Source: the human T2T-CHM13v2.0 reference genome, Homo sapiens. Taken from it: a stretch of 64,000 bases of DNA. Shown in pieces: positions 4,484 to 58,141 of the stretch. A model generated the notes under the pieces. That model was not told the DNA's origin, made no database searches, and saw only the letters and a list, made by a program, of their open reading frames with translations. Both the position numbers and the translations under genes were made by a program. Each line of letters begins with the position of its first letter. Position 1 is the stretch's first letter. The stretch lies in the NCBI RefSeq assembly GCF_009914755.1, contig NC_060932.1. One strand, given 5' to 3'.

Positions 4484-4600
4484 TAATTGGATTAAGTTAA
4501 TTGCAATTAAGGTACAGGTAACTGATTAGGTTAGGGTACGTTCCATGTCAGGTGACCAGAGGCAGTATGAAAGGCAGCCTGGAAAGCGGAGGTCCCTCTC
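4484..4600 (+). promoter_or_regulatory. Putative FAM90A core promoter (G1): homeodomain sites + DUX4-type motif + variant TATA (TATGAAAG)
   Basis: TAATTGGATTA 4484-4494; palindrome TTAATTGCAATTAA 4497-4510; TGATTAGGTTA 4523-4533; TATGAAAG 4566-4573; pyrimidine-rich start region ~30 nt downstream. Confidence 0.7.
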
Positions 4601-4708
4601 TGCCCCTTCCTCCGTCGTCCTGGATGCTGCATCGCTTCCAGCCGGGCTGCTGCAGCACCTGCCCATCTCAGCGCCAGCCTGGGAAAGAAAGTAGACGTGT
4701 AATTTCAG
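4597..4708 (+). other. Candidate first non-coding exon of FAM90A (one per unit; start approximate)
   Basis: Begins ~30 nt after the TATA box and ends at CAG|GTTGGT (CAG|GTTAGT in G8). The ATG-containing exon has its own acceptor at 5669/5670, which implies an upstream exon. Confidence 0.5.
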
Positions 4709-5052
4709 GTTGGTTTCGCTGAACAATTGTTTGTTTCACGCAATCCCTGAGGGGTTTTTGCGGGGGGTGTGGGGGAGGAAGAGACAAAGGAGGCCGAAAG
4801 AAACCGATCACACTGGGGCTTGCTGGTGGGGTAGGATGTGTTCTCGTTACTAGTAATTCTTGGAACAGAAAACGAGAAAACATATCCGTCTCCACGTGTG
4901 GGAGAAGACCAAGATGGGAATGGGAAAAGAAATGTACTGCAGCATGCTGAATTGGTGGGTAAATGGAAAAAGGACTTTGGAAAAAAGGGGGGTTTGCCCT
5001 TCAGCCGTGTAAGACGTCGATACGATACGGCACTTCTTCCCCGTTTGTTCAG

Positions 5053-5166
5053 ATGAATTCGTGTGGTGTGCGTAAAATACCAGGAAAATAAATAAAGAGG
5101 GGCTGGAGCTAAAGCCAAAAGATAGAACAGGAAAGATCCTCACCTGCTAGTGCGGTAGAGAGGAAG
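5053..5166 (+). other. Candidate optional 5'UTR exon (114 nt) carrying a uORF
   Basis: Acceptor cacttcttccccgtttgttcAG| at 5052; donor AAG|GTAACT at 5166/5167. Confidence 0.4.
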
Positions 5167-5725
5167 GTAACTTCTCTGTATGAATTTGTGCTTGGAAGTT
5201 GCCTAATGAAATGGCAAGAGTAGCGATTCAAGTTGTCACAGGAAGCATCCCTTATCCGTGACTTCAAGCAGACCTGCCAAAGGGTGGCACACGCCATGCC
5301 CTGTGTCTTCGATCATTCTGTCCGTCAAGGGAGATAGAATCACCGTGTCTTCTACCGGAGTGAATCGTGAGAGACCTAAGTCCAGTCTCCAGAATCAGTT
5401 GTTTGTTTGGGGTTGAAAGCTCAACCCCCCCATACCTAGGCCACGGGCCCTGTGGCAGGTGGGGTTTACTCTTGGACTAGGTAGTCATGGCAGAGGAACA
5501 CACAATATCCGAGGATGCGCACAGCACATTGTGTTCTACAGATTTGACCGACTGGTGGTGAGGTCTCCTCATGACCACACAGGCAGGGAGTTAGCAGGTG
5601 GCTTCCTGTGGGTGTGTGAATATCCAACGTGCTTAACCATCGACATGTGTGTGTTTGTGTGTGTTTCAGGTGGCCCAACAGTCCACCCCTGAAAAAGGCG
5701 GTCATAAAACCCCCAGGAGACGAAG

Positions 5726-8700
5726 ATGATGGCACGTCGGGACCCCAAATCTTGGGCCAAGAGACTGGTGAGAGCCCAGACCCTCCAGAAGCAGCGGAGG
5801 GCCCCAGTTGGGCCAAGGGCTCCCCCGCCCGATGAAGAAGATCCCAGGGTAAGTGTAGCCCTGGATCTCTTGGGTATCGGGGTGGGGGTGGGGACGGGGG
5901 GAGGGGCTGTCCCACGGTCCTCAGAGACTGGGTTGGATTCCAAAGAGTTCTGTCACCACCAGCCAGGTTGCTTTTCCCATCCAAGGTGGGCGTGGCTTGG
6001 GACCTTCTCCCCGGCCCGATAGGTCCCTTGAGAGACTCTTGGGGGCAACCTCCCTTTCTACTTAGAGTCCTGTGTAGCCATGTTTGGCTGCGTTGTTGAC
6101 ATCGGCTTCACCATCGTGCCCCTTGGAACCTTGAGTCCTTCCTTTCAGAGTTCCTCCGTCACATGGGCTTTGCGAGGGAACATCGTATCCGAACTCTCCC
6201 AGCACTTAACGGCCCCCATGCCGGTGTCCCCTCTTTGGAATCCTTATTCAGCTCTGAATTCACAATCCGTCCCAATGTTGACGTGGGATCGCTGCCTGTG
6301 GCTTCAGCTCACTCACTGACATCACTTCCTTTCCACCCGCAGCTCAAGTGCAAAAACTGCGGGGCCTTTGGCCACACGGCCAGAAGTACCAGGTGCCCCA
6401 TGAAGTGCTGGAAGGCAGCCCTGGTTCCAGCGACCTTGGGGAAAAAGGAAGGGAAGGAAAACCTGAAACCATGGAAGCCCCGGGGTGAAGCCAACCCGGG
6501 GCCCTTGAACAAGGATAAGGGAGAGAAGGAAGAGAGACCAAGGTGAGCAGTGGGAGGGGTTTTCACCACTCTTAGGGTACGGCCTCCCAAGGACATGGTG
6601 TCTCTGCACCTGCACACCGTGTGCCTTTCCGTCTCCGGGCCAGGGAAGGAACGCTGCAGAGAAATAGGCCGGAGCTCCGTGTCCTCCGGGGTTCCACACC
6701 CAGGAGCTCCTTGGGCTCTGGGAGATTCAGGGACGGGGAGAGGCGGGGGCGCTTCGTGCAGGTTCCCCACGACAGCGGGAAAAGCGATGGAATCCAAATC
6801 ACAGTCCTTAGTTGGGAAGCCTAGAGGGCCACCTGGAGGATGGGAAGGTTGGCACGTGAGGGAAGGTGCAGAGGCGGAAAGGGCACCAGATGTCCATTTC
6901 TGTATCACAAAACACGGAATGGGGCTGGGCCCCAGACGGGGTTCTCCCTGTCTCCTGGGGAAAACCAGGGGGCACGGCCTGACCTTCTTCTGTTCTGCAG
7001 GCAACAAGACCCGCAGAGGAAGGCTCTCCTCCACATGTTTTCCGGGAAACCTCCAGAGAAGCCGCTGCCGAATGGAAAAGGATCCACGGAATCTTCTGAT
7101 TATCTGAGGGCGAGTGTCACCCCGGGCCCCTGGTCTTTTTCTCCTCTAGGTCACCCTGGTTGATTTCCTTTCAGCTTCCCGTCTGCGGGAGGAAATCGGG
7201 GAACCCCTCTTTCTTGCCTTCTTGGGGTCAGGGACTCCACGATCCTTCCAGGTCAATTGGATTCCAGGCGAAGGCATCTGAACATGCCGTATTTCCTGTT
7301 GCTTTCTTTCTGTCCAATTATGGCAAGCCTGCCAACAACACGTTCCTAGCGGCATGAGGAAATTAGTCCCTCAGAGGCCCCAAACGTGGAGAAGGCGAAA
7401 CCCAGGAACATGCATGTGTTCAGAGAAGACGTCCCGAGTACCCTTGAGCCAGCAACCTGCCTTGGGAAGGGCATTAGTCCGTTCCACTTCATGGAAGGCT
7501 GAGTGGAGGCGCTTTGATCCAGTTAATGCCCAAGACGCGATCTTTTGAACAATGGTGTGCTTAGATCAGCTACACATAGCTCGAGAGCGCATCTTTCATG
7601 TGTCTTGTCCTGATCAGCACTCAGGTGGAGGGTCTGTCCCTACTTCCAAGGACCGCCTGTCGATACTGTACTAAGAATTTCATGGCGTGTGCACCTTGTC
7701 TTTGGATGTGCTTGATTTTCACGTTGGCTCCATGCTGAGGAACTTCTAACCTGTGTTGTTTCCTCTCTTTCAGGTTGCAAGCGGGCCAATGCCGGTCCAC
7801 ACAACCAGTAAGAGGCCGCGCTTGGACCCTGTCCTCGCTGATCGCTCAGCTACCGCAATGTCTGGCAGGGGCTCCGTCTTGGCTTCACTGTCTCCCCTCA
7901 GAAAAGCCAGCCTGAGCTCCTCCTCAAGTCTTGGACCAAAGGAAAGACAGACAGGGGCTGCGGCCGACATGCCTCAGCCTGCAGTCAGGCACCAGGGCCG
8001 CGAGCCTCTCCTCGTGGTGAAGCCGACACACAGCCGCCCCGAGGGTGGCTGCCGAGAAGTTCCCCAGGCTGCCTCCAAAACCCACGGCCTGCTCCAGGCC
8101 GCCAGACCCCAGGCACAAGACAAACGTCCTGCGGTGACCTCACAGCCCTGCCCGCCAGCCGCCACACACAGCTTGGGCCTAGGCTCCAATCTCAGCTTCG
8201 GGCCAGGAGCCAAGAGACCTGCCCAGGCTCCGATTCAGGCTTGCCTGAACTTCCCCAAGAAACCGAGACTGGGTCCCTTCCAGATCCCCGAAAGCGCCAT
8301 CCAGGGAGGTGAGCTGGGGGCCCCGGAGAATCTCCAACCTCCGCCAGCCGCAACCGAACTTGGACCAAGTACGTCGCCCCAGATGGGCAGGAGGACACCG
8401 GCCCAGGTGCCCAGCGTCGACCGGCAGCCTCCGCACAGCACACCTTGCCTGCCTACTGCCCAGGCCTGCACCATGTCCCATCACTCAGCGGCCAGCCATG
8501 ATGGGGCCCAGCCTCTCAGAGTGCTCTTCCGGAGACTGGAAAACGGACGCTGGAGCTCCAGCCTCCTGGCGGCCCCCTCATTTCACTCTCCTGAGAAGCC
8601 GGGAGCCTTCCTCGCTCAGAGCCCTCATGTGTCAGAGAAGTCTGAGGCTCCCTGTGTTCGTGTCCCACCGAGCGTCCTCTATGAGGACCTTCAGGTTTCC

Positions 8701-8736
8701 TCCTCCTCAGAGGACAGCGATTCTGACCTGGAGTGA
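5726..8736 (+). CDS. FAM90A: FAM90A family zinc-knuckle protein, 464 aa (copy G1)
   Basis: Exons 5726-5848 (donor GTAAGT), 6343-6542 (branch cactgac, ccgcAG; donor GTGAGC), 7001-7109 (ctgcAG; donor GCGAGT) and 7774-8736. Phases join in frame: 1395 nt = 464 aa + stop. MMARRDPKSWAKRLVRAQTLQKQ...LKCKNCGAFGHTARSTRCPMKCW is the recognisable FAM90A N-terminus. Variants R24,P30,T367. Confidence 0.95.
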
Positions 8737-9350
8737 GACTGCAGGTGGCAGGGGCTCCTTGGCCTCCGGCTCCCGTGACTTGGAGGGGACTGTGGGACTG
8801 AGGAGCGCAGAGCAGAGAGCACACTCTGTGCGGTGACTCCGAAGCTCCCCGGCTGTGGCGCTTCTGTGGATGTGGGAGCCCAGGCCAGGCAGGGAGCAGA
8901 TGCAGGGACTCTGCCTCATTGAATTCTGGTGAGGGACGTTGTAGTTGGCGTGGTTCTCCGGAAACGCGCCAGGAAAAGCTTCCGTGCCAGAGATTCGTTG
9001 CCTCACAAACTGCGTGACGCGCAGGAGTCAGACTTCCGCTGGGACGTCAATAGGAAACTGGGGAATTACTGTGTATTTGCTCTCTAGATGACTGAATAAG
9101 GGAAAAGTTAGGGAACCCTGAGAGGTGCAGCCCTTCCGCTGTGCCCCGCCCTGAGAGCAGAGTTTCGGACGCTGGGAAGCGTGCTGTGCGAAGCGCTCTC
9201 GGGGTCTTTCCTCAGCCTCGAAAACTGGGCTCTGGAATGCCTTTGTACATATGTGTGTTTCATTGGTTTTGAAGTGAATAAAATTCTCAAAAAGATGACA
9301 TATTGTCTTTTGACTCTCATTCCGTGTTTGTGTGTAACTGATTTTCCAAG

Positions 9351-10383
9351 TGAAGGGGTGGCCTGCCCCTCCACACCTGTGGGTGTTTCTAGTCGGGTGG
9401 GATGAGAGACGGAGAAAAGAAATAAGACACAGAGACAAAGTATAGGGAGACAACAGTGGGTCCAGGGGACCGGCACTCAGCACACCTAGGACCTGCACCG
9501 GCACCGGCCTCTGAGTTCCCGCAGTTTTTATTGATTGTGATTTTCATTATTTCAGCACAAAGGAATGCAGTAGGGGAGCAGGGTGATAATAAGGGGAAGG
9601 TCAACAAAAACAACACAAAACAAACACGTGAGCAAAAGAATCCATATCATTATTAAGTTCAAGGGAAGGTACTATGCCTGGACGTGCACGTAGGCCAGAT
9701 TTATGTTTCTCTCCACACAAATATCTCAGCGGAGTAAAGAATAACAAGGCAGCATTACTGCCAACATGTCTCGCCTCCCGCCACAGGGCAGCTTTTCTCC
9801 GAGCTCAGAGTTGAACAAATGTACGATCGGGCTTTACACCGAGACATTCAGTTCCCAGGGGCAAGCAGGAGACAGTGGCCTTCCTCCATCTGAACTGCAA
9901 GAGGCGTTCCTCTTTGACTAATCCACCTCAGCACAGACACATTGCGGGTGTCAGGCTGGGGGACATTCAGGACTTTCCCATCCCACGAGGCCATATTTCA
10001 GACTGTCACATGGGGAGAAACCTTGGACAATACCCTGCTATCAAGGGCAGAGGTCCCTGTGGCTTTCCACGGTGCATTGCGCCCCTGGTTTATTGAGACT
10101 AGAGAATGGCAATGACTTCTACCAAGTATACTGCTCGTAAACATTTGGTTAACAAGGCGCGTCCTGCACAGCCCCAGATCCCTTAAACCTCGATTTTATA
10201 CAACACAGGTTTTTGTGAGCTCCAAGTTGGGTCAAAGGAAGGGGCTGCGGCAAGGCAACAAATGAACAACATCTCAGCAAAGCAATTGTTTAAAGTACAG
10301 GTCTTTTTCAAAATGGAGTCTCTTATGTCTTCCCCTTCTACATAGACACAGTGACAGTCTGATCTCTCTTTCTTTACCCTACA
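9351..10383 (-). mobile_element. Solo HERV-K(HML-2) LTR5A-like (copy)
   Basis: Same termini and TCCAAG TSD; offset +7,648. Confidence 0.93.
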
Positions 10384-12131
10384 TCCAAGGGCTTGAACAT
10401 TTCTTGACTTGTTGGCAATCCAAATCGTTACGTCTCCGAAACAGAGTTGACTGAGGGGACCGCAGGGCTGGGCAGGACCTTTGACTTCCTATACATCCAC
10501 AGGAGCAAGAAAACCTCAGCCCCACTCTACCAACACGCACCTAGTAAAATTCCGCCAACCGCATCTCACGCACGCTAACACGTGGGGAGCGTTGCTTGCA
10601 CCACGAGTCCCCATTTGGCTCAACCGCCGATGCCAAGTGTGTGGTTCCAGTTGCGACGGCCCCCCGTGAAGTGGCTTCCGGATGTGCGAAGGAACCAGGC
10701 AGAGTTTCACTGGCCAAATAGACCCCAGCAAAGCTGAAGTTAACTCCCACATTTGGGATGTACTTCAGAGGTAAAACATTCATCCCGTCTTCTTTCCGGA
10801 TGTCTGACACCATGGTTCTCCCCCTGATCCTAAGAGTAGCTGAGGCAGAGACTCACTGAAAGATCTAGGCGGGGATATCCCATCATGCACAGGCTCTCTC
10901 CATTCTCTGACCTGGGAACAACTCTCAGCAGGATTCCACATCTAGGAGGCCTCGGAACTCAGCGGGATTTTCTGAGACACACCAACTGGCTGCTCCCTCT
11001 CCGCCGCTGTTGAGGGTCGTTATCTTGATTATCCAGATCACCTAGAAAGTATCCGTATCCAGAATGAATAAGATCAACTCTCTGCTCCTCTGACAGCAGA
11101 AGGAGCAGGACCGTAAGGAACCAAAGAGCGTGGAAGGAAACGATGTGACAGGAAAGCTCAGAGAACGGCCACAGGGGGTCGTCAGCAGGCCTTCCAACCT
11201 GAATCATGAATAATTAATGAAGCGCAAATCAAAGGGGACTCGAGTTTCAGCAGGAGCAATTCATCCAACGGGAGATCGCCGGAGGGCCAACAAGATTGAG
11301 TGACTGGGAGCCGGGTGCAGTGTCAAAGGGGACGCGACTGGTTCCAAAGCTCGAGAAGACCATGGGGTCACTTGGGCTACATGAGAAAACGCCCCAGTGT
11401 GCTGGTTCATCATTCCGACTCCTGCCTGTCTCTTCCCGTCCAAGGAACATGGACCCTAAGTCGTGCAGGTGCGGATGACCATGGGCAGAATTAGGGGCCG
11501 TGGCACAAAAGTTCACCGACACGGGAGTTCCACAGAAGGTGCGGTGGATCTTCGCAAATCCAGAGACATGGCAATGGGACCCAGGGAATTACAGCCTCAC
11601 AGGCGTCCGGGAGACTTTTCAGGCATAATGCCTGGAGTCGCAAGAGGAGCTGAAAAAGGAGCCAGGCACTGAAGGACAAAGCGTTGTTGACTTTCCTCAT
11701 CTGTGTTTCCCAGTGCGGTCCAATTCACGGTTGTTTCCAAGCGCCTCCTGGGGGAGAAAACACATGAGGGTGCGGTCAGGGTTCTCTGCTGACAGACTTA
11801 CCTTGGGGAAGAAAGAGAAGCTCTGAAGATGGATCATGGCCGTGACTGCATGTCAAGGAGAGTCTCCTTGATGACACTGAGGCCTACGTCGAGATAGACA
11901 AAATGTGGTCCAATTAAAAGGTGTCTATTTTACCACATTTTTTAAAACAAAACAAAACAAAACAACAAAAAAGATGGAAAAGAAGACAGGGGTACAGGCA
12001 CCAGTGTTACATGTCTGACGGGGAACATCTATTGTTCAAAGCTTGCAGCTGTACAAGTAGGTTTTAGAATGTCTGTCAGCAGTGGACATGATCTTAGAGT
12101 GGGCTGTGCAGATAGACCTTTCCAGGTCATG

Positions 12132-12248
12132 TAATTGGATTAAGTTAATTGCAATTAAGGTACAGGTAACTGATTAGGTTAGGGTACGTTCCATGTCAGG
12201 TGACCAGAGGCAGTATAAAAGGCAGCCTGGAAAGCGGAGGTCCCTCTC
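12132..12248 (+). promoter_or_regulatory. Putative FAM90A core promoter (G2), canonical TATAAAAG
   Basis: DUX4-type motif 12171-12181; TATAAAAG 12214-12221. Confidence 0.75.
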
Positions 12249-13373
12249 TGCCCCTTCCTCCGTCGTCCTGGATGCTGCATCGCTTCCAGCCGGGCTGCTG
12301 CAGCACCTGCCCATCTCAGCGCCAGCCTGGGAAAGAAAGTAGACGTGTAATTTCAGGTTGGTTTCGCTGAACAATTGTTTGTTTCACGCAATCCCTGAGG
12401 GGTTTTTGCGGGGGGTGTGGGGGAGGAAGAGACAAAGGAGGCCGAAAGAAACCGATCACACTGGGGCTTGCTGGTGGGGTAGGATGTGTTCTCGTTACTA
12501 GTAATTCTTGGAACAGAAAACGAGAAAACATATCCGTCTCCACGTGTGGGAGAAGACCAAGATGGGAATGGGAAAAGAAATGTACTGCAGCATGCTGAAT
12601 TGGTGGGTAAATGGAAAAAGGACTTTGGAAAAAAGGGGGGTTTGCCCTTCAGCCGTGTAAGACGTCGATACGATACGGCACTTCTTCCCCGTTTGTTCAG
12701 ATGAATTCGTGTGGTGTGCGTAAAATACCAGGAAAATAAATAAAGAGGGGCTGGAGCTAAAGCCAAAAGATAGAACAGGAAAGATCCTCACCTGCTAGTG
12801 CGGTAGAGAGGAAGGTAACTTCTCTGTATGAATTTGTGCTTGGAAGTTGCCTAATGAAATGGCAAGAGTAGCGATTCAAGTTGTCACAGGAAGCATCCCT
12901 TATCCGTGACTTCAAGCAGACCTGCCAAAGGGTGGCACACGCCATGCCCTGTGTCTTCGATCATTCTGTCCGTCAAGGGAGATAGAATCACCGTGTCTTC
13001 TACCGGAGTGAATCGTGAGAGACCTAAGTCCAGTCTCCAGAATCAGTTGTTTGTTTGGGGTTGAAAGCTCAACCCCCCCATACCTAGGCCACGGGCCCTG
13101 TGGCAGGTGGGGTTTACTCTTGGACTAGGTAGTCATGGCAGAGGAACACACAATATCCGAGGATGCGCACAGCACATTGTGTTCTACAGATTTGACCGAC
13201 TGGTGGTGAGGTCTCCTCATGACCACACAGGCAGGGAGTTAGCAGGTGGCTTCCTGTGGGTGTGTGAATATCCAACGTGCTTAACCATCGACATGTGTGT
13301 GTTTGTGTGTGTTTCAGGTGGCCCAACAGTCCACCCCTGAAAAAGGCGGTCATAAAACCCCCAGGAGACGAAG

Positions 13374-19779: not shown

Positions 19780-19896
19780 TAATTGGATTAAGTTAATTGC
19801 AATTAAGGTACAGGTAACTGATTAGGTTAGGGTACGTTCCATGTCAGGTGACCAGAGGCAGTATAAAAGGCAGCCTGGAAAGCGGAGGTCCCTCTC
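19780..19896 (+). promoter_or_regulatory. Putative FAM90A core promoter (G3), canonical TATAAAAG
   Basis: DUX4-type motif 19819-19829; TATAAAAG 19862-19869. Confidence 0.75.
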
Positions 19897-27427: not shown

Positions 27428-27544
27428 TAATTGGATTAAGTTAATTGCAATTAAGGTACAGGTAACTGATTAGGTTAGGGTACGTTCCATGTCAGGTGAC
27501 CAGAGGCAGTATAAAAGGCAGCCTGGAAAGCGGAGGTCCCTCTC
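27428..27544 (+). promoter_or_regulatory. Putative FAM90A core promoter (G4), canonical TATAAAAG
   Basis: DUX4-type motif 27467-27477; TATAAAAG 27510-27517. Confidence 0.75.
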
Positions 27545-35075: not shown

Positions 35076-35192
35076 TAATTGGATTAAGTTAATTGCAATT
35101 AAGGTACAGGTAACTGATTAGGTTAGGGTACGTTCCATGTCAGGTGACCAGAGGCAGTATGAAAGGCAGCCTGGAAAGCGGAGGTCCCTCTC
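35076..35192 (+). promoter_or_regulatory. Putative FAM90A core promoter (G5), variant TATGAAAG
   Basis: DUX4-type motif 35115-35125; TATGAAAG 35158-35165. Confidence 0.7.
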
Positions 35193-36317: not shown

Positions 36318-39300
36318 ATGATGGCACGTCGGGACCCCAAATCTTGGGCCAAGAGACTGGTGAGAGCCCAGACCCTCCAGAAGCAGCAGAGGGCCCCAGT
36401 TGGGCGAAGGGCTCCCCCGCCCGATGAAGAAGATCCCAGGGTAAGTGTAGCCCTGGATCTCTTGGGTATCGGGGTGGGGGTGGGGACGGGGGGAGGGGGT
36501 GTCCCACGGTCCTCAGAGACTGGGTTGGATTCCAAAGAGTTCTGTCACCACCAGCCAGGTTGCTTTTCCCATCCAAGGTGGGCGTGGCTTGGGACCTTCT
36601 CCCCGGCCCGATAGGTCCCTTGAGAGACTCTTGGGGGCAACCTCCCTTTCTACTTAGAGTCCTGTGTAGCCACGTTTGGCTGCGTTGTTGACATCGGCTT
36701 CACCATCGTGCCCCTTGGAACCTTGAGTCCTTCCTTTCAGAGTTCCTCCGTCACATGGGCTTTGCGAGGGAACATCGCATCCGAACTCTCCCAGCACTTA
36801 ACGGCCCCCATGCCGGTGTCCCCTCTTTGGAATCCTTATTCAGCTCTGAATTCACAATCCGTCCCAATGTTGACGTGGGATCGCTGCCTGTGGCTTCAGC
36901 TCACTCACTGACATCACTTCCTTTCCACCCGCAGCTCAAGTGCAAAAACTGCGGGGCCTTTGGCCACACGGCCAGAAGTACCAGGTGCCCCATGAAGTGC
37001 TGGAAGGCAGCCCTGGTTCCAGCGACCTTGGGGAAAAAGGAAGGGAAGGAAAACCTGAAACCATGGAAGCCCCGGGGTGAAGCCAACCCGGGGCCCTTGA
37101 ACAAGGATAAGGGAGAGAAGGAAGAGAGACCAAGGTGAGCAGTGGGAGGGGTTTTCACCACTCTTAGGGTACGGCCTCCCAAGGACATGGTGTCTCTGCA
37201 CCTGCACACCGTGTGCCTTTCCGTCTCCGGGCCAGGGAAGGAACGCTGCAGAGAAATAGGCCGGAGCTCCGTGTCCTCCGGGGTTCCACACCCAGGAGCT
37301 CCTTGGGCTCTGGGAGATTCAGGGACGGGGAGAGGCGGGGGCGCTTCGTGCAGGTTCCCCACGACAGCGGGAAAAGCGATGGAATCCAAATCACAGTCCT
37401 TAGTTGGGAAGCCTAGAGGGCCACCTGGAGGATGGGAAGGTTGGCACGTGAGGGAAGGTGCAGAGGCGGAAAGGGCACCAGATGTCCATTTCTGTATCAC
37501 AAAACACGGAATGGGGCTGGGCCCCAGACGGGGTTCTCCCTGTCTCCTGGGGAAAACCAGGGGGCACGGCCTGACCTTCTTCTGTTCTGCAGGCAACAAG
37601 ACCCGCAGAGGAAGGCTCTCCTCCACATGTTTTCCGGGAAACCTCCAGAGAAGCCGCTGCCGAATGGAAAAGGATCCACGGAATCTTCTGATTATCTGAG
37701 GGCGAGTGTCACCCCGGGCCCCTGGTCTTTTTCTCCTCTAGGTCACCCTGGTTGATTTCCTTTCAGCTTCCCGTCTGCGGGAGGAAATCGGGGAACCCCT
37801 CTTTCTTGCCTTCTTGGGGTCAGGGACTCCACGATCCTTCCAGGTCAATTGGATTCCAGGCGAAGGCATCTGAACATGCCGTATTTCCTGTTGCTTTCTT
37901 TCTGTCCAATTATGGCAAGCCTGCCAACAACACGTTCCTAGCGGCATGAGGAAATTAGTCCCTCAGAGGCCCCAAACGTGGAGAAGGCGAAACCCAGGAA
38001 CATGCATGTGTTCAGAGAAGACGTCCCGAGTACCCTTGAGCCAGCAACCTGCCTTGGGAAGGGCATTAGTCCGTTCCACTTCATGGAAGGCTGAGTGGAG
38101 GCGCTTTGATCCAGTTAATGCCCAAGACGCGATCTTTTGAACAATGGTGTGCTTAGATCAGCTACACATAGCTCGAGAGCGCATCTTTCATGTGTCTTGT
38201 CCTGATCAGCACTCAGGTGGAGGGTCTGTCCCTACTTCCAAGGACCGCCTGTCGATACTGTACTAAGAATTTCATGGCGTGTGCACCTTGTCTTTGGATG
38301 TGCTTGATTTTCACGTTGGCTCCATGCTGAGGAACTTCTAACCTGTGTTGTTTCCTCTCTTTCAGGTTGCAAGCGGGCCAATGCCGGTCCACACAACCAG
38401 TAAGAGGCCGCGCTTGGACCCTGTCCTCGCTGATCGCTCAGCTACCGCAATGTCTGGCAGGGGCTCCGTCTTGGCTTCACTGTCTCCCCTCAGAAAAGCC
38501 AGCCTGAGCTCCTCCTCAAGTCTTGGACCAAAGGAAAGACAGACAGGGGCTGCGGCCGACATGCCTCAGCCTGCAGTCAGGCACCAGGGCCGCGAGCCTC
38601 TCCTCGTGGTGAAGCCGACACACAGCCGCCCCGAGGGTGGCTGCCGAGAAGTTCCCCAGGCTGCCTCCAAAACCCACGGCCTGCTCCAGGCCGCCAGACC
38701 CCAGGCACAAGACAAACGTCCTGCGGTGACCTCACAGCCCTGCCCGCCAGCCGCCACACACAGCTTGGGCCTAGGCTCCAATCTCAGCTTCGGGCCAGGA
38801 GCCAAGAGACCTGCCCAGGCTCCGATTCAGGCTTGCCTGAACTTCCCCAAGAAACCGAGACTGGGTCCCTTCCAGATCCCCGAAAGCGCCATCCAGGGAG
38901 GTGAGCTGGGGGCCCCGGAGAATCTCCAACCTCCGCCAGCCGCAACCGAACTTGGACCAAGTACGTCGCCCCAGATGGGCAGGAGGACACCGGCCCAGGT
39001 GCCCAGCGTCGACCGGCAGCCTCCGCACAGCAGACCTTGCCTGCCTACTGCCCAGGCCTGCACCATGTCCCATCACTCAGCGGCCAGCCATGATGGGGCC
39101 CAGCCTCTCAGAGTGCTCTTCCGGAGACTGGAAAACGGACGCTGGAGCTCCAGCCTCCTGGCGGCCCCCTCATTTCACTCTCCTGAGAAGCCGGGAGCCT
39201 TCCTCGCTCAGAGCCCTCATGTGTCAGAGAAGTCTGAGGCTCCCTGTGTTCGTGTCCCACCGAGCGTCCTCTATGAGGACCTTCAGGTTTCCTCCTCCTC

Positions 39301-42723: not shown

Positions 42724-42840
42724 TAATTGGATTAAGTTAATTGCAATTAAGGTACAGGTAACTGATTAGGTTAGGGTACGTTCCATGTCAGGTGACCAGA
42801 GGCAGTATGAAAGGCAGCCTGGAAAGCGGAGGTCCCTCTC
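42724..42840 (+). promoter_or_regulatory. Putative FAM90A core promoter (G6), variant TATGAAAG
   Basis: DUX4-type motif 42763-42773; TATGAAAG 42806-42813. Confidence 0.7.
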
Positions 42841-46900: not shown

Positions 46901-46976
46901 TGTCCCACCGAGCGTCCTCTATGAGGACCTTCAGGTTTCCTCCTCCTCAGAGGACAGCGATTTTGACCTGGAGTGA
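43966..46976 (+). CDS. FAM90A: FAM90A family protein, 464 aa (copy G6)
   Basis: Exons 43966-44088, 44583-44782, 45241-45349, 46014-46976. Variants Q24,R30,T178,R367,F461. Confidence 0.95.
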
Positions 46977-50371: not shown

Positions 50372-50488
50372 TAATTGGATTAAGTTAATTGCAATTAAGG
50401 TACAGGTAACTGATTAGGTTAGGGTACGTTCCATGTCAGGTGACCAGAGGCAGTATGAAAGGCAGCCTGGAAAGCGGAGGTCCCTCTC
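50372..50488 (+). promoter_or_regulatory. Putative FAM90A core promoter (G7), variant TATGAAAG
   Basis: DUX4-type motif 50411-50421; TATGAAAG 50454-50461. Confidence 0.7.
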
Positions 50489-51613
50489 TGCCCCTTCCTC
50501 CGTCGTCCTGGATGCTGCATCGCTTCCAGCCGGGCTGCTGCAGCACCTGCCCATCTCAGCGCCAGCCTGGGAAAGAAAGTAGACGTGTAATTTCAGGTTG
50601 GTTTCGCTGAACAATTGTTTGTTTCACGCAATCCCTGAGGGGTTTTTGCGGGGGGTGTGGGGGAGGAAGAGACAAAGGAGGCCGAAAGAAACCGATCACA
50701 CTGGGGCTTGCTGGTGGGGTAGGATGTGTTCTCGTTACTAGTAATTCTTGGAACAGAAAACGAGAAAACATATCCGTCTCCACGTGTGGGAGAAGACCAA
50801 GATGGGAATGGGAAAAGAAATGTACTGCAGCATGCTGAATTGGTGGGTAAATGGAAAAAGGACTTTGGAAAAAAGGGGGGTTTGCCCTTCAGCCGTGTAA
50901 GACGTCGATACGATACGGCACTTCTTCCCCGTTTGTTCAGATGAATTCGTGTGGTGTGCGTAAAATACCAGGAAAATAAATAAAGAGGGGCTGGAGCTAA
51001 AGCCAAAAGATAGAACAGGAAAGATCCTCACCTGCTAGTGCGGTAGAGAGGAAGGTAACTTCTCTGTATGAATTTGTGCTTGGAAGTTGCCTAATGAAAT
51101 GGCAAGAGTAGCGATTCAAGTTGTCACAGGAAGCATCCCTTATCCGTGACTTCAAGCAGACCTGCCAAAGGGTGGCACACGCCATGCCCTGTGTCTTCGA
51201 TCATTCTGTCCGTCAAGGGAGATAGAATCACCGTGTCTTCTACCGGAGTGAATCGTGAGAGACCTAAGTCCAGTCTCCAGAATCAGTTGTTTGTTTGGGG
51301 TTGAAAGCTCAACCCCCCCATACCTAGGCCACGGGCCCTGTGGCAGGTGGGGTTTACTCTTGGACTAGGTAGTCATGGCAGAGGAACACACAATATCCGA
51401 GGATGCGCACAGCACATTGTGTTCTACAGATTTGACCGACTGGTGGTGAGGTCTCCTCATGACCACACAGGCAGGGAGTTAGCAGGTGGCTTCCTGTGGG
51501 TGTGTGAATATCCAACGTGCTTAACCATCGACATGTGTGTGTTTGTGTGTGTTTCAGGTGGCCCAACAGTCCACCCCTGAAAAAGGCGGTCATAAAACCC
51601 CCAGGAGACGAAG

Positions 51614-54600
51614 ATGATGGCACGTCGGGACCCCAAATCTTGGGCCAAGAGACTGGTGAGAGCCCAGACCCTCCAGAAGCAGCAGAGGGCCCCAGTTGGG
51701 CGAAGGGCTCCCCCGCCCGATGAAGAAGATCCCAGGGTAAGTGTAGCCCTGGATCTCTTGGGTATCGGGGTGGGGGTGGGGACGGGGGGAGGGGGTGTCC
51801 CACGGTCCTCAGAGACTGGGTTGGATTCCAAAGAGTTCTGTCACCACCAGCCAGGTTGCTTTTCCCATCCAAGGTGGGCGTGGCTTGGGACCTTCTCCCC
51901 GGCCCGATAGGTCCCTTGAGAGACTCTTGGGGGCAACCTCCCTTTCTACTTAGAGTCCTGTGTAGCCACGTTTGGCTGCGTTGTTGACATCGGCTTCACC
52001 ATCGTGCCCCTTGGAACCTTGAGTCCTTCCTTTCAGAGTTCCTCCGTCACATGGGCTTTGCGAGGGAACATCGCATCCGAACTCTCCCAGCACTTAACGG
52101 CCCCCATGCCGGTGTCCCCTCTTTGGAATCCTTATTCAGCTCTGAATTCACAATCCGTCCCAATGTTGACGTGGGATCGCTGCCTGTGGCTTCAGCTCAC
52201 TCACTGACATCACTTCCTTTCCACCCGCAGCTCAAGTGCAAAAACTGCGGGGCCTTTGGCCACACGGCCAGAAGTACCAGGTGCCCCATGAAGTGCTGGA
52301 AGGCAGCCCTGGTTCCAGCGACCTTGGGGAAAAAGGAAGGGAAGGAAAACCTGAAACCATGGAAGCCCCGGGGTGAAGCCAACCCGGGGCCCTTGAACAA
52401 GGATAAGGGAGAGAAGGAAGAGAGACCAAGGTGAGCAGTGGGAGGGGTTTTCACCACTCTTAGGGTACGGCCTCCCAAGGACATGGTGTCTCTGCACCTG
52501 CACACCGTGTGCCTTTCCGTCTCCGGGCCAGGGAAGGAACGCTGCAGAGAAATAGGCCGGAGCTCCGTGTCCTCCGGGGTTCCACACCCAGGAGCTCCTT
52601 GGGCTCTGGGAGATTCAGGGACGGGGAGAGGCGGGGGCGCTTCGTGCAGGTTCCCCACGACAGCGGGAAAAGCGATGGAATCCAAATCACAGTCCTTAGT
52701 TGGGAAGCCTAGAGGGCCACCTGGAGGATGGGAAGGTTGGCACGTGAGGGAAGGTGCAGAGGCGGAAAGGGCACCAGATGTCCATTTCTGTATCACAAAA
52801 CACGGAATGGGGCTGGGCCCCAGACGGGGTTCTCCCTGTCTCCTGGGGAAAACCAGGGGGCACGGCCTGACCTTCTTCTGTTCTGCAGGCAACAAGACCC
52901 GCAGAGGAAGGCTCTCCTCCACATGTTTTCCGGGAAACCTCCAGAGAAGCCGCTGCCGAATGGAAAAGGATCCACGGAATCTTCTGATTATCTGAGGGCG
53001 AGTGTCACCCCGGGCCCCTGGTCTTTTTCTCCTCTAGGTCACCCTGGTTGATTTCCTTTCAGCTTCCCGTCTGCGGGAGGAAATCGGGGAACCCCTCTTT
53101 CTTGCCTTCTTGGGGTCAGGGACTCCACGATCCTTCCAGGTCAATTGGATTCCAGGCGAAGGCATCTGAACATGCCGTATTTCCTGTTGCTTTCTTTCTG
53201 TCCAATTATGGCAAGCCTGCCAACAACACGTTCCTAGCGGCATGAGGAAATTAGTCCCTCAGAGGCCCCAAACGTGGAGAAGGCGAAACCCAGGAACATG
53301 CATGTGTTCAGAGAAGACGTCCCGAGTACCCTTGAGCCAGCAACCTGCCTTGGGAAGGGCATTAGTCCGTTCCACTTCATGGAAGGCTGAGTGGAGGCGC
53401 TTTGATCCAGTTAATGCCCAAGACGCGATCTTTTGAACAATGGTGTGCTTAGATCAGCTACACATAGCTCGAGAGCGCATCTTTCATGTGTCTTGTCCTG
53501 ATCAGCACTCAGGTGGAGGGTCTGTCCCTACTTCCAAGGACCGCCTGTCGATACTGTACTAAGAATTTCATGGCGTGTGCACCTTGTCTTTGGATGTGCT
53601 TGATTTTCACGTTGGCTCCATGCTGAGGAACTTCTAACCTGTGTTGTTTCCTCTCTTTCAGGTTGCAAGCGGGCCAATGCCGGTCCACACAACCAGTAAG
53701 AGGCCGCGCTTGGACCCTGTCCTCGCTGATCGCTCAGCTACCGCAATGTCTGGCAGGGGCTCCGTCTTGGCTTCACTGTCTCCCCTCAGAAAAGCCAGCC
53801 TGAGCTCCTCCTCAAGTCTTGGACCAAAGGAAAGACAGACAGGGGCTGCGGCCGACATGCCTCAGCCTGCAGTCAGGCACCAGGGCCGCGAGCCTCTCCT
53901 CGTGGTGAAGCCGACACACAGCCGCCCCGAGGGTGGCTGCCGAGAAGTTCCCCAGGCTGCCTCCAAAACCCACGGACTGCCCCAGGCCGCCAGACCCCAG
54001 GCACAAGACAAACGTCCTGCGGTGACCTCACTGCCCTGCCCGCCAGCCGCCACACACAGCTTGGGCCTAGGCTCCAATCTCAGCTTCGGGCCAGGAGCCA
54101 AGAGACCTGCCCAGGCTCCGATTCAGGCTTGCCTGAACTTCCCCAAGAAACCGAGACTGGGTCCCTTCCAGATCCCCGAAAGCGCCATCCAGGGAGGTGA
54201 GCTGGGGGCCCCGGAGAATCTCCAACCTCCGCCAGCCGCAACCGAACTTGGACCAAGTACGTCGCCCCAGATGGGCAGGAGGACACCGGCCCAGGTGCCC
54301 AGCGTCGACCGGCAGCCTCCGCACAGCACACCTTGCCTGCCTACTGCCCAGGCCTGCACCATGTCCCATCACTCAGCGGCCAGCCATGATGGGGCCCAGC
54401 CTCTCAGAGTGCTCTTCCGGAGACTGGAAAACGGACGCTGGAGCTCCAGCCTCCTGGCGGCCCCCTCATTTCACTCTCCTGAGAAGCCGGGAGCCTTCCT
54501 CGCTCAGAGTCCTCATGTGTCAGAGAAGTCTGAGGCTCCCTGTGTTCGTGTCCCACCGAGCGTCCTCTATGAGGACCTTCAGGTTTCCTCCTCCTCAGAG

Positions 54601-54624
54601 GACAGCGATTCTGACCTGGAGTGA
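51614..54624 (+). CDS. FAM90A: FAM90A family protein, 464 aa (copy G7, apparently chimeric)
   Basis: Exons 51614-51736, 52231-52430, 52889-52997, 53662-54624. Variants Q24,R30,P251,L268,T367. Confidence 0.95.
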
Positions 54625-55238
54625 GACTGCAGGTGGCAGGGGCTCCTTGGCCTCCAGCTCCCGTGACTTGGAGGGGACTGTGGGACTGAGGAGCGCAGAG
54701 CAGAGAGCACACTCTGTGCGGTGACTCCGAAGCTCCCCGGCTGTGGCGCTTCTGTGGATGTGGGAGCCCAGGCCAGGCAGGGAGCAGATGCAGGGACTCT
54801 GCCTCATTGAATTCTGGTGAGGGACGTTGTAGTTGGCGTGGTTCTCCGGAAACGCGCCAGGAAAAGCTTCCGTGCCAGAGATTCGTTGCCTCAGAAACTG
54901 CGTGACGCGCAGGAGTCAGACTTCCGCTGGGACGTCAATAGGAAACTGGGGAATTACTGTGTATTTGCTGTCTAGATGACTGAATAAGGGAAAAGTTAGG
55001 GAACCCTGAGAGGTGCAGCCCTTCCGCTGTGCCCCGCCCTGAGAGCAGTGTTTCGGACGCTGGGAAGCGTGCTGTGCGAAGCGCTCTCGGGGTCTTTCCT
55101 CAGCCTCGAAAACTGGGCTCTGGAATGCCTTTGTACATATGTGTGTTTAATGGGTTTTGAAGTGAATAAAATTCTCAAAAAGATGACGTATTGTCTTTTG
55201 ACTCTCATTCCGTGTTTGTGTGTAACTGATTTTCCAAG

Positions 55239-56271
55239 TGAAGGGGTGGCCTGCCCCTCCACACCTGTGGGTGTTTCTAGTCGGGTGGGATGAGAGACGG
55301 AGAAAAGAAATAAGACACAGAGACAAAGTATAGGGAGACAACAGTGGGTCCAGGGGACCGGCACTCAGCACACCTAGGACCTGCACCGGCACCGGCCTCT
55401 GAGTTCCCTCAGTTTTTATTGATTATGATTTTCATTATTTCAGCACAAAGGAATGCAGTAGGGGAGCAGGGTGATAATAAGGGGAAGGTCAACAACAACA
55501 ACAAAAAACAAACACGTGAGCAAAAGAATCCATATCATTATTAAGTTCAAGGGAAGGTACTATGCCTGGACGTGCACGTAGGCCAGATTTATGTTTCTCT
55601 CCACACAAATATCTCAGCGGAGTAAAGAATAACAAGGCAGCATTACTGCCAACATGTCTCGCCTCCCGCCACAGGGCAGCTTTTCTCCGAGCTCAGAGTT
55701 GAACAAATGTACGATCGGGCTTTACACCGAGACATTCAGTTCCCAGGGGCAAGCAGGAGACAGTGGCCTTCCTCCATCTGAACTGCAAGAGGCGTTCCTC
55801 TTTGACTAATCCACCTCAGCACAGACCCATTGCGGGTGTCAGGCTGGGGGACATTCAGGACTTTCCCATCCCACGAGGCCACATTTCAGACTGTCACATG
55901 GGGAGAAACCTTGGACAATACCCTGCTTTCAAGGGCAGAGGTCCCTGTGGCTTTCCACGGTGCATTGCGCCCCTGGTTTATTGAGACTAGAGAATGGCAA
56001 TGACTTCTACCAAGTATACTGCTCGTAAACATTTGGTTAACAAGGCGCGTCCTGCACAGCCCTAGATCCCTTAAACCTCGATTTTATACAACACAGGTTT
56101 TTGTGAGCTCCAAGTTGGGTCAAAGGAAGGGGCTTCGGGAAAGCTACAAATGATCAACATCTCAGTAAAGCAATTGTTTAAAGTACAGGTCTTTTTCAAA
56201 ATGGAGTCTCTTATGTCTTCCCCTTCTACATAGACACAGTGACAGTCTGATCTCTCTTTCTTTACCCTACA
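55239..56271 (-). mobile_element. Solo HERV-K(HML-2) LTR5A-like (more diverged copy)
   Basis: Same termini and TSD. Multiple SNVs relative to copies 1-7, some shared with the last copy. Confidence 0.93.
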
Positions 56272-58024
56272 TCCAAGGGCTTGAACATTTCTTGACTTGT
56301 TGGCAATCCAAATCGTTACGTCTCCGAAACAGAGTTGACTGAGGGGACCGCAGGGCTGGGCAGGACCTTTGACTTCCTATACATCCACAGGAGCAAGAAA
56401 ACCTCAGCCCCACTCTACCAACACGCACCTAGTAAAATTCCGCCAACCGAATCTCACGCACGCTAACACGTGGGGAGCGTTGCTTGAACCACGAGTCCCC
56501 ATTTGGCTCAACCGCCGATGCCAAGTGTGTGGTTCCAGTTGCGACGGCCCCCCGTGAAGTGGCTTCCGGATGTGCGAATGAACCAGGCAGAGTTTCACTG
56601 GCCAAATAGACCCCAGCAAAGCTGAAGTTAACTCCCACATTTGGGATGTACTTCAGAGGTAAAACATTCATCCCGTCTTCTTTCCGGATGTCTGACACCA
56701 TGGTTCTCCCCCTGATCCTAAGAGTAGCTGAGGCAGAGACTCACTGAAAGATCTAGGCGGGGATATCCCATCATGCACAGGCTCTCTCCATTCTCTGACC
56801 TGGGAACAACTCTCAGCAGGATTCCACATCTAGGAGGCCTCGGAACTCAGCGGGATTTTCTGAGACACACCAACTGGCTGCTCCCTTTCCGCCGCTGTTG
56901 AGGGTCGTTATCTTGATTATCCAGATCAACTAGAAAGTATCCGTATCCAGAATGAATAAGATCAACTCTCTGCTCCTCTGACAGCAGAAGGAGCAGGACC
57001 ATAAGGAACCAAAGAGCGTGGAAGGAAACAATGTGACAGGAAAGCTCAGAGAACGGCCACAGGGGGTCGTCAGCAGGCCTTCCAACCTGAATCATGAATA
57101 ATTAATGAAGCGCAAATCAAAGGGGACTCGAGTTTCAGCAGGAGCAATCCATCCAACCGGAGATCGCCGGAGGGCCAACAAGATTGAGAGACTGGGAGCC
57201 GGGTGCAGTGTCAAAGGGGACGCGACTGGTTCCAAAGCTCGAGAAGACCATGGGGTCACTTGGGCTACATGAGAAAACGCCCCAGTGTGCTGGTTCATCA
57301 TTCCGACTCCTGCCTGTCTCTTCCCGTCCAAGGAACATGGACCCTAAGTCGTGCAGGTGCGGATGACCATGGGCAGAATTAGGGGCCGTGGCACAAAAGT
57401 TCACCGACACGGGAGTTCCACAGAAGGTGCGGTGGATCTTCGCAAATCCAGAGACATGGCAATGGGACCCAGGGAATTACAGCCTCACAGGCGTCCGGGA
57501 GACTTTTCAGGCATGATGCCTGGAGTCGCAAGACCAGCTGAAAAAGGAGCCAGGCACTGAAGGACAAAGCGTTGTTGACTTTCCTCATCTGTGTTTCCCA
57601 GTGCGGTCCAATTCACGGTTGTTTCCAAGCGCCTCCTGGGGGAGAAAACACATGAGGGTGCGGTCAGGGTTCTCTGCTGACAGACTTACCTTGGGGAAGA
57701 AAGAGAAGCTCTGAAGATGGATCATGGCCGTGACTGCATGTCAAGGAGAGTCTCCTTGATGACACTGAGGCCTACGTCGAGATAGACAAAATGTGGTCCA
57801 ATTAAAAGGTGTCTATTTTACCACATTTTTTAAAACAAAACAAAACAAAACAAAACAACAAAAAAGATGGAAAAGAAGACAGGGGTACAGGCACCAGTGT
57901 TACATGTCTGACGGGGAACATCTATTGTTCAAAGCTTGCAGCTGTACAAGTAGGTTTTAGAATGTCTGTCAGCAGTGGACATGATCTTAGAGTGGGCTGT
58001 GCAGACAGACCTTTCCAGGTCATG

Positions 58025-58141
58025 TAATTGGATTAAGTTAATTGCAATTAAGGTACAGGTAACTGATTAGGTTAGGGTACGTTCCATGTCAGGTGACCAG
58101 AGGCAGTATAAAAGGCAGCCTGGGAAGCAGAGGTCCCTCTC
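58025..58141 (+). promoter_or_regulatory. Putative FAM90A core promoter (G8), canonical TATAAAAG
   Basis: DUX4-type motif 58064-58074; TATAAAAG 58107-58114. Confidence 0.75.

What the first reader, a model, noticed from the sequence alone, without database searches (positions are those of the whole stretch)
4566..58114. A single-base TATA-box switch splits the paralogs 4:4 (TATAAAAG vs TATGAAAG)
Seen: canonical TATAAAAG at 12214, 19862, 27510 and 58107 (G2,G3,G4,G8); TATGAAAG at 4566, 35158, 42806 and 50454 (G1,G5,G6,G7). Established: a G at position 4 departs from TATAWAWR and weakens TBP binding. Inference: copies with near-identical coding sequence may be strong or weak expressers, so functional dosage would depend on the TATA-allele composition of the array rather than raw copy number. 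All three Q24 copies carry the weak allele. G1 and G2 encode identical proteins but differ at this base.
Basis: partly seen in the sequence, partly recalled or inferred. Interest (0 to 1): 0.7.

Follow-up and report, generated by a model that had tools for sequence, protein, structure and literature searches.

The report
FAM90A array TATA-box A/G paralog variant
Some copies of the tandemly repeated human FAM90A gene carry a single-base change that probably weakens their promoter's TATA box, but it is an ordinary copy-to-copy variant affecting a minority of the family's many copies.

Summary
TATAAAAG sits at 12214, 19862, 27510 and 58107; TATGAAAG at 4566, 35158, 42806 and 50454.

- **Origin:** genome-wide, 57 FAM90A copies carry this promoter. 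G occurs in 9, all inside the 28-unit chr8:11.70-11.92 Mb array. The other 48, including chr12 FAM90A1, have A, so G is derived and private to this array.
- **Promoter evidence:** each 7.65-kb unit has one TATAWAWR match (A-allele units only) and one DUX4 consensus site, 33 bp upstream of it. Papers report FAM90A1 as DUX4-induced and expressed in 8-cell embryos. A DUX4-type TATA promoter is likely, but no TSS data were available.
- **Likely effect:** the same substitution in beta-globin (CATAAAAg to CATGAAAg) lowers TBP affinity about 9-fold (PMC3570547).
- **Spread:** G sits on two diverged unit backgrounds. Six of its nine copies are three units and their copies from a recent 8-unit duplication.
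- **Weight:** about 20% of such arrays would show a variant in the octamer by chance. Only 9 of 57 copies are affected.

Verdict: a real, plausible per-copy down-mutation of modest consequence, with its effect on expression untested.

The parts
4566..4573 (+). G1 (array unit U3) TATA octamer, derived allele TATGAAAG
12214..12221 (+). G2 (U4) TATA octamer, ancestral allele TATAAAAG
19862..19869 (+). G3 (U5) TATAAAAG
27510..27517 (+). G4 (U6) TATAAAAG
35158..35165 (+). G5 (U7) TATGAAAG, linked to R24Q
42806..42813 (+). G6 (U8) TATGAAAG, linked to R24Q
50454..50461 (+). G7 (U9) TATGAAAG, linked to R24Q
58107..58114 (+). G8 (U10, divergent unit type) TATAAAAG
4523..4533 (-). DUX4-consensus site TAACCTAATCA of G1. 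The same site occurs at 12171, 19819, 27467, 35115, 42763, 50411 and 58064. It is the only match per unit and ends 33 bp upstream of the TATA octamer.
   Evidence: 8 matches against 0.15 expected. The consensus TAAYBBAATCA is recalled. PMC4730607 passages show tandem-TAAT motifs of this type, in either orientation, are DUX4-active.
4484..4494 (-). Second double-homeobox-like site of G1, TAATCCAATTA on the minus strand. It has one mismatch to the DUX4 consensus and an AATTA ending like the active FRG2 motif. It is invariant in the 8 units over the aligned 208 bp.
   Evidence: Sequence read. The FRG2 motif TAACCTAATTA gave about 3-fold activation in PMC4730607. Inference.
4602..4708 (+). Predicted non-coding exon 1 of G1. 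The TSS is inferred about 30-36 bp after the TATA, with donor CAG|GTTGGT at 4708/4709. It contains an upstream ATG that opens a 34-codon uORF.
   Evidence: Inference from sequence only; no transcript data seen.
5670..5848 (+). First coding exon of G1 with its predicted 5' extension. The acceptor is ...tttcag|G at 5669/5670, and the annotated ATG is at 5726.
   Evidence: sequence and the hub annotation (CDS 5726-5848). The acceptor is inferred.
5796..5796 (+). Position of the R24Q variant (G in G1; A at 36388, 44036 and 51684 in G5-G7). It is a transcribed marker linked to the G TATA allele.

Best explanation
The A/G difference is a derived A-to-G paralogous sequence variant at position 4 of the TATA box of the FAM90A promoter.

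**The promoter.** It is a non-CpG-island, DUX4-type (cleavage-stage) promoter. Double-homeobox sites lie at about -82 and -43. The TATA is at 0. The inferred TSS is near +30 to +36. A short non-coding exon is then spliced to the first coding exon, 56 nt before the ATG.

**Origin and spread.** The G allele arose within the chr8:11.70-11.92 Mb array. It spread among units by unequal exchange or gene conversion and by a very recent 8-unit block duplication. It now occupies 9 of 28 units there and 0 of 29 copies elsewhere.

**Expected effect.** By analogy with HBB -29A>G, it should lower TBP/TFIID affinity several-fold and reduce transcription from each G copy.

**Consequence.** Only 9 of 57 promoters carry it, so the effect on total FAM90A output is small and the variant is probably nearly neutral.

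**Shown:** the variant, its polarity, its distribution, its mosaic backgrounds and the motif architecture.
**Inferred:** use of this TATA as the core promoter, the TSS and exon 1, and reduced expression of G copies.
For: **Sequence and polarity**
- Positions and alleles are confirmed.
- Of 57 copies, 9 carry G, all in one array. The chr12 FAM90A1 copy and all five other chr8 clusters carry A.

**Promoter architecture**
- There is exactly one DUX4-consensus match per unit (8 found, 0.15 expected) and one TATAWAWR match per A unit. They are 33 bp apart and oriented toward the ORF. Two single sites falling within 50 bp in a 7.65-kb unit is about a 1% event.
- The 297-bp promoter fragment has only the 57 family copies in the genome (57 candidates, 40 scored). 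At this tool's sensitivity it is not a dispersed repeat.
- The chr12 copy keeps both homeobox sites, the TATA and the CAG|GTTAGT donor.
- The region is not a CpG island. GC is 0.43-0.56 and CpG observed/expected is 0.23-0.64 from -200 to +200.

**Expression context (supplement rows or passages only)**
- FAM90A1 rose 5.5-fold and 11.8-fold in the two expression tables of the DUX4- and DUX4c-transfected myoblast study (PMC5323140).
- FAM90A1 marks DUX4-induced clusters, pct 0.646 against 0.066 (PMC9287684 Table S3).
- The FAM90A1 probe carries a value of 128 in a table in the section comparing day-3 embryos with trophectoderm (PMC3382239).
- FAM90A1 is in the 8C-like-cell signature, and FAM90A27P and FAM90A1 are in the E3 embryo list (PMC8901440).

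**Effect of the substitution**
- The same substitution in HBB raises TBP Kd from 44 to 390 nM and is associated with beta-thalassaemia (PMC3570547).

**Spread**
- U4-U11 and U13-U20 differ by 0-4 sites per 7.65 kb.
- G lies on two unit types that differ at 82-103 sites.
- U3 is U4-like except for a U7-like segment ending at the site.
- Gene conversion in the DEFB-FAM90A region is reported in PMC13216315.
Against: - **No TSS evidence.** I saw no CAGE, 5' RACE or transcript evidence for any copy. RefSeq models in the window are CDS-only. Bosch et al. 2007, which characterised the 5' UTRs, is not held.
- **Recalled abstract.** It states that subfamilies I and II differ in upstream and 5'-UTR sequence. 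FAM90A1 itself may therefore start upstream of the chr12/chr8 homology boundary at about -590, not at this TATA.
- **Attribution of expression.** All the expression evidence names FAM90A1 or FAM90A27P. Array probes and short reads cannot assign signal to these chr8 copies.
- **No extra conservation.** The promoter block is no more conserved between chr12 and chr8 than its surroundings: about 4 differences per 100 bp against about 5% overall.
- **No initiator.** There is no canonical CA initiator at +28 to +33.
- **Context dependence.** The TBP measurement comes from another promoter (CATA rather than TATA, different flanks).
- **Chance.** A variant in the octamer is expected in about 20% of such arrays.
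Confidence: 0.55

Rival explanations
1. The variant is a neutral paralogous variant in DNA that is not the working core promoter. FAM90A transcripts of these units would start elsewhere, for example upstream of the unit junction or at dispersed sites. The octamer's TATA likeness would then have no consequence.
For: - No TSS evidence was found in any call.
- The recalled Bosch 2007 abstract says the subfamilies differ in their 5' UTR.
- The promoter block shows no excess conservation.
- About 20% of such arrays would show a SNP in the octamer by chance.
- The derived copy count of the site (9 of 27 units polarised) is about the mean for W-to-S variants, 9.45.
Against: - The unit's single DUX4-consensus site lies 33 bp from the unit's single TATAWAWR, in the right orientation and upstream of a good donor and acceptor pair.
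- The family is DUX4-inducible and expressed at the 8-cell stage.
Confidence: 0.25
2. The octamer is the working TATA box, but the G allele makes no measurable difference in vivo. Strong DUX4-driven activation with p300/CBP recruitment, or TFIID contacts beyond TBP, would compensate for it.
For: - PMC3570547 quotes a study concluding that 15-30% of TBP/TATA binding suffices for normal transcription levels.
- HBB -29A>G gives a mild phenotype (same passage).
Against: - HBB -29A>G is nonetheless disease-associated.
- The measured affinity loss is about 9-fold.
- No alternative A/T-rich octamer lies within about 30 bp to serve as a fallback.
Confidence: 0.15
3. The split is maintained by selection. 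The array would be partitioned into strong and weak expressers, as dosage tuning or subfunctionalisation linked to protein variants such as Q24.
For: - G occurs on two diverged unit backgrounds. This could reflect recurrent mutation or favoured spread.
- All 6 Q24 copies carry G.
Against: - Six of the nine G copies are three units and their copies from one recent block duplication.
- The Q24 association is explained by 1.2-kb linkage on one lineage.
- G also sits on R24 proteins identical to those of A copies (U3 and U12 against U4 and U13).
- A-to-G is a W-to-S change. W-to-S derived variants in general reach higher copy counts here: mean 9.45 against 4.64 of 27, one-sided Mann-Whitney p = 0.0003, with linked sites. 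Biased conversion or drift is therefore sufficient.
Confidence: 0.03
4. The A/G calls are an assembly or polishing artefact in a near-identical tandem array.
For: Units differ by as few as 0-15 sites per 7.65 kb, which is the situation in which mis-polishing can occur.
Against: - The G allele is embedded in consistent multi-site haplotypes. It is linked to -482, -213 and R24Q in one lineage, and to +35 and +50 in another.
- It is reproduced faithfully in the duplicated block.
Confidence: 0.02

Closest known systems
HBB -29A>G beta-thalassaemia TATA-box mutation (CATAAAAg to CATGAAAg)
   Same: It is the same substitution (A to G) at the same position of the box, followed by the same AAAG. The measured TBP Kd rises from 44 to 390 nM (PMC3570547, Table 1).
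   Different: HBB starts from CATA rather than TATA, has different flanks, and is a single-copy gene with a clinical read-out. Here the change sits in 9 of 57 near-identical paralogs and has no measured effect.
DUX4-responsive cleavage-stage promoters (for example ZSCAN4 and FRG2)
   Same: They have tandem-TAAT DUX4 motifs close upstream of a TATA-containing core promoter. ZSCAN4 has DUX4 motifs (PMC4730607), and a TATA box lies at the 3' end of its cloned promoter (PMC4569847). FAM90A1 is reported among DUX4-induced and 8-cell genes.
   Different: I saw no DUX4 ChIP or reporter data for FAM90A. The promoter fragment is private to the family and is not a MaLR/ERVL LTR copy at the sensitivity.
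Paralogous sequence variants with cis-regulatory effect in human tandem or duplicated gene arrays (for example the permissive 4qA polyadenylation-signal variant of DUX4, and SMN1/SMN2; both recalled)
   Same: A single-base difference between near-identical copies could decide how much each copy contributes. Effective dosage would then depend on array composition rather than copy number. Gene conversion shuffles such variants (PMC13216315).
   Different: In those cases the functional effect is proven and large. Here it is inferred, applies to a minority of many copies, and the gene's function is unknown.

Membership tests
TATA-box core promoter element | Match to TATAWAWR | tested here: met
   It is met for the A allele, with 4 matches in the window, all at this site. 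The G allele (TATGAAAG) fails the consensus at position 4.
TATA-box core promoter element | Located about 25-35 bp upstream of a mapped transcription start | not testable with these tools
   No transcript 5'-end data were available. RefSeq models in the window are CDS-only (hub table). FAM90A is absent from the STRT supplements of PMC4569847 as held.
TATA-box core promoter element | Bound by TBP/TFIID | not testable with these tools
   There is only the HBB analogue.
DUX4-responsive promoter | DUX4 consensus site (tandem TAAT type, TAAYBBAATCA) near the core promoter | tested here: met
   There is one exact match per unit, 33 bp upstream of the TATA: 8 found against 0.15 expected. The consensus string is recalled. 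Related motifs were tested in PMC4730607.
DUX4-responsive promoter | Gene induced by DUX4 expression | tested here: inconclusive
   Papers report FAM90A1 as induced. The signal cannot be assigned to these chr8 copies, and I ran no test of my own.
DUX4-responsive promoter | DUX4 occupancy (ChIP) at the site | not tested
   No ChIP data were seen. Geng et al. 2012 was not found under the id I tried.
Paralogous sequence variant spread by gene conversion or unequal exchange | Derived state shared by several copies and absent from outgroup copies | tested here: met
   G is in 9 of 28 array units and 0 of 29 other copies, including chr12.
Paralogous sequence variant spread by gene conversion or unequal exchange | Same allele on different unit backgrounds, or mosaic units | tested here: met
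   G lies on type I units (U3, U7-9, U16-18) and on U12 and U23, which differ from them at 82-103 sites. U3 is a U4/U7 mosaic. U21 differs from U12 and U23 at +3, +35 and +50 only within shared flanks. Recurrent mutation is not excluded for U12 and U23.

The most novel reading that the evidence does not exclude
Effective FAM90A dosage at human embryonic genome activation is set by the TATA-allele composition of the 8p23.1 arrays, not by copy number.

- G-allele units would be several-fold weaker DUX4-responsive promoters.
- GC-biased gene conversion would be spreading this promoter-weakening W-to-S allele, together with a second W-to-S change at the putative exon-1 donor, through one array.
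- Haplotypes with equal copy number would then differ materially in FAM90A output and in which protein variant (Q24 or R24) is made.
Probability: 0.12. Interest if true: 0.5.

Novelty: new member of a known kind. Interest (0 to 1): 0.3.

Why it matters
FAM90A is one of three human gene families with more than 50 paralogs in T2T-CHM13 (bioRxiv 10.1101/2024.09.26.615256, passage). It lies in the copy-number-variable, inversion-prone 8p23.1 region.

If the G allele really weakens the promoter, copy-number assays would misjudge functional dosage. The linked coding marker R24Q would give a ready-made read-out of allele-specific promoter strength in long-read cDNA.

The practical weight is limited for three reasons:
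- The gene's function is unknown.
- Only 9 of 57 promoters are affected in this genome.
- TATA-box down-mutations and regulatory differences between paralogs are well-known phenomena.

The most useful by-product is the promoter anatomy: a single DUX4 site plus a single TATA per unit. This explains why the family appears in DUX4 and 8-cell gene lists.

Tried and rejected
**Searches for TSS evidence**
- Bosch et al. 2007 is not held.
- The Geng 2012 id I tried is not held.
- Supplements of PMC8990217 hold only FAM90A1 count rows that show no DUX4-knockdown effect.
- Supplements of PMC4569847 do not mention FAM90A as held.
- Passages of PMC5854669, PMC7205035, PMC3413121, PMC12882164 and bioRxiv 10.64898/2025.12.03.692127 say nothing about the promoter.

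**Literature searches**
- FAM90A with TATA gave 9 papers. FAM90A with promoter and transcription start site gave 12 papers. None describes this variant or the FAM90A core promoter in its listing or in the passages I read.
- A six-term search was badly designed. It ranked papers without FAM90A and gave nothing.
- bioRxiv supplements are closed, and many supplements are stored cut. A mention there cannot be excluded.

**Other steps**
- I tested whether the promoter is a dispersed LTR or other TE. Only the 57 family copies were found, so I rejected this at that sensitivity.
- I tested for extra conservation of the promoter between chr12 and chr8. None was found.
- I considered CpG deamination as the mutational origin. 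The site is not in a CpG (TATG/TATA), so I rejected it.
- The Tandem Repeats Finder call cannot see the 7.6-kb period because its longest period is 500. It reported only a small AAAAC microsatellite.
Full report
**Observation.** The window holds eight full 7648-bp FAM90A tandem units. The last interval is 7653 bp because of an extra AAAAC in a microsatellite. TATAAAAG occurs four times, at 12214, 19862, 27510 and 58107. TATGAAAG occurs four times, at 4566, 35158, 42806 and 50454. Both sets are on the + strand at homologous positions. In a 208-bp alignment the A/G base is the only difference among G1-G7, and G8 has three private changes nearby. The octamer lies 1160 bp upstream of each annotated ATG. 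R24Q (window 5796) is confined to G5-G7. G1 and G2 differ only at six sites at or upstream of 4569, so they encode identical proteins.

**Polarity and distribution.** A 29-mer around the site, allowing up to 3 mismatches, matches 57 places in the assembly. G is present at 9 of them. All nine lie in the 28-unit array at chr8:11.70-11.92 Mb that contains the window. The allele string for U1-U28 is AAGAAAGGGAAGAAAGGGAAAAGAAAAA. The other 29 copies all have A. They lie on chr8 near 7.00, 7.27-7.34, 7.56, 12.16, 12.38-12.45 and 12.70 Mb, and on chr12 at FAM90A1. The chr12 segment 8,232,904-8,240,644 is colinear with one whole unit at about 95% identity, so it serves as an outgroup. A is therefore ancestral, and G is derived and private to this array. 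The site is not a CpG.

**How G is distributed in the array.**
- *Recent block duplication.* Units U4-U11 and U13-U20 differ by only 1, 2, 0, 1, 3, 4, 3 and 3 sites per 7.65 kb. This is a very recent 8-unit (about 61 kb) duplication. U7-9 and U16-18 are thus three units and their three copies.
- *Two backgrounds.* G also lies on U3, U12 and U23. U12 and U23 belong to a unit type that differs from U3 and U7-9 at 82-103 sites.
- *Type-specific markers around U12 and U23.* They flank the site at -266 and +22. Either a conversion tract shorter than about 290 bp moved G between backgrounds, or the mutation recurred.
- *U21.* It is the A-bearing sister of U12 and U23. Between shared flanks it differs from them only at +3, +35 and +50, which looks like a short conversion tract.
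- *U3 (G1).* It is U4-like except for U7-like alleles at -482, -213 and +3.

The 4:4 pattern in the window is therefore the product of exchange between units. This fits the gene conversions reported for the DEFB-FAM90A region (PMC13216315, passages).

**GC bias.** I polarised variants with chr12 across 27 units; U1 was dropped because its 5' part is the array edge. The 77 W-to-S derived variants reach higher copy counts (mean 9.45) than the 75 S-to-W variants (mean 4.64). The one-sided Mann-Whitney p is 0.0003. This is compatible with GC-biased conversion. It is confounded by linkage between sites and by young CpG transitions. The TATA variant (9 copies) is typical of its class.

**Is it a promoter?**
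- *Motif architecture.* Each unit contains exactly one match, on either strand, to the DUX4 consensus TAAYBBAATCA. This is TAACCTAATCA on the minus strand, for example at 4523-4533. There are 8 matches against 0.15 expected.
- *TATA uniqueness.* Each A-allele unit contains exactly one match to TATAWAWR.
- *Spacing.* The two sites are 33 bp apart, and the TATA is oriented toward the ORF. My own estimate for two single sites falling within 50 bp in a 7.65-kb unit is about 1%.
- *Second site.* A double-homeobox-like site, TAATCCAATTA on the minus strand, lies at 4484-4494. It ends in AATTA like the FRG2 motif that gave about 3-fold DUX4 activation in PMC4730607 (passages).
- *Downstream structure.* A pyrimidine-rich stretch follows the TATA. 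The first pyrimidine-purine step is at +35/+36. A donor CAG|GTTGGT lies at 4708/4709, and an acceptor tttcag|G lies at 5669/5670, 56 nt before the ATG.
- *Not a repeat or CpG island.* The 297-bp promoter fragment has no copies outside the family (57 candidates, 40 scored). The region is not a CpG island.

**Expression context from papers.**
- FAM90A1 rose 5.5-fold and 11.8-fold in the two expression tables of the DUX4- and DUX4c-transfected myoblast study (PMC5323140, table passages).
- It marks DUX4-induced blastomere-like clusters (PMC9287684, Table S3 rows).
- The FAM90A1 probe carries a value of 128 in a table in the section comparing day-3 embryos with trophectoderm (PMC3382239, table passage).
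- It belongs to the 8C-like-cell signature, and FAM90A27P and FAM90A1 are in the E3 embryo list (PMC8901440, supplement rows).

Together these make a DUX4-type TATA promoter the best reading. The TSS itself is not shown.

**Against that reading.**
- I saw no 5'-end data.
- Bosch et al. 2007 could not be read. Its abstract, as I recall it, says the two subfamilies differ in upstream and 5'-UTR sequence. Homology between chr12 and chr8 begins only about 590 bp upstream of the TATA, so FAM90A1's usual start may lie further upstream.
- The promoter block is no better conserved than its surroundings.
- Array probes and short reads cannot attribute expression to these particular copies.

**Likely effect of G.** The exact analogue has been measured. 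HBB -29A>G changes CATAAAAg to CATGAAAg and raises the TBP dissociation constant from 44 to 390 nM, about 9-fold. It is associated with beta-thalassaemia (PMC3570547, Table 1 and discussion passages). The same passage notes an older conclusion that 15-30% of TBP binding can suffice for normal transcription, so the size of any effect in vivo is open. No other A/T-rich octamer lies close enough to substitute.

**Weight.**
- All 28 array units keep an intact 464-codon ORF, and they encode nine protein variants. The G copies are therefore not otherwise disabled.
- Only 9 of 57 promoters carry G, which bounds any loss of family output at about 16% in this genome.
- With 210 polarised SNP columns per 7648 bp, a hit in the octamer is expected about 20% of the time.
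- A second array-private derived change is present in 19 of 28 units and 0 of 29 copies elsewhere. It is A-to-G at +4 of the putative exon-1 donor, window 4712 and homologues. Such hits in plausible functional motifs are thus not rare here.

**Comparison and novelty.** The variant works like a classical TATA-box down-mutation of the HBB -29A>G kind. It is set in a DUX4-responsive promoter like those of ZSCAN4 or FRG2. It behaves like the paralogous regulatory variants known from other duplicated human loci. The full-text searches found no description of it or of the FAM90A core promoter. It is a new member of a known kind rather than a new kind.

**Verdict.** Interest is modest.

Noticed in passing
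window 7700-64000 (units U4-U10) and L012-L019 outside the window: Array units U4-U11 are repeated as U13-U20, with only 0-4 differences per 7.65-kb unit. The unit-length pattern is also identical (7648 x5, then 7653, 7649, 7643). This indicates a very recent 8-unit (about 61 kb) higher-order duplication inside the FAM90A array.
   Followed up: partly
window 4712, 12360, 20008, 27656, 35304, 42952, 50600 (G1-G7); A at 58253 in G8: There is a derived A-to-G change at intron position +4 of the putative exon-1 splice donor (CAG|GTTAGT to CAG|GTTGGT). It is present in 19 of 28 units of this array and 0 of 29 FAM90A copies elsewhere. If the donor is real, most units of this array have a slightly weaker 5' splice site.
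   Followed up: partly
whole 28-unit array (window plus L010-L025): Derived weak-to-strong (A/T to G/C) variants sit in about twice as many units as strong-to-weak ones: mean 9.45 against 4.64 of 27, one-sided Mann-Whitney p = 0.0003. This is compatible with GC-biased gene conversion, but the sites are linked and CpG transitions confound the comparison.
   Followed up: partly
window 7109/7110 and homologues (end of the third coding exon): The donor of the third coding exon is GC rather than GT in 27 of 28 array units. Only U28 has GT.
   Followed up: no
window 53607-61265 (G8 = U10): G8 is a divergent unit type, with 77-87 differences from G1-G7 and about 55 private sites in the window. It includes a 5-bp AAAAC insertion at 57832-57865, reported by TRF. 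Its near-twin U19 lies outside the window.
   Followed up: partly
window 12272-12375 spliced to 13318 and onward (predicted 5' UTR of G2): The predicted exon 1 carries an upstream ATG. This opens a 34-codon uORF that ends in the second exon, before the main ATG.
   Followed up: no
window 11627-11728 (and each homologous unit junction): The tandem-unit junction lies 486-587 bp upstream of the TATA. The chr12 FAM90A1 segment 8,232,904-8,240,644 matches one full unit, and about 100 bp is shared by both ends of the unit. An AATAAA lies 541 nt after each stop codon, for example at 9277.
   Followed up: partly
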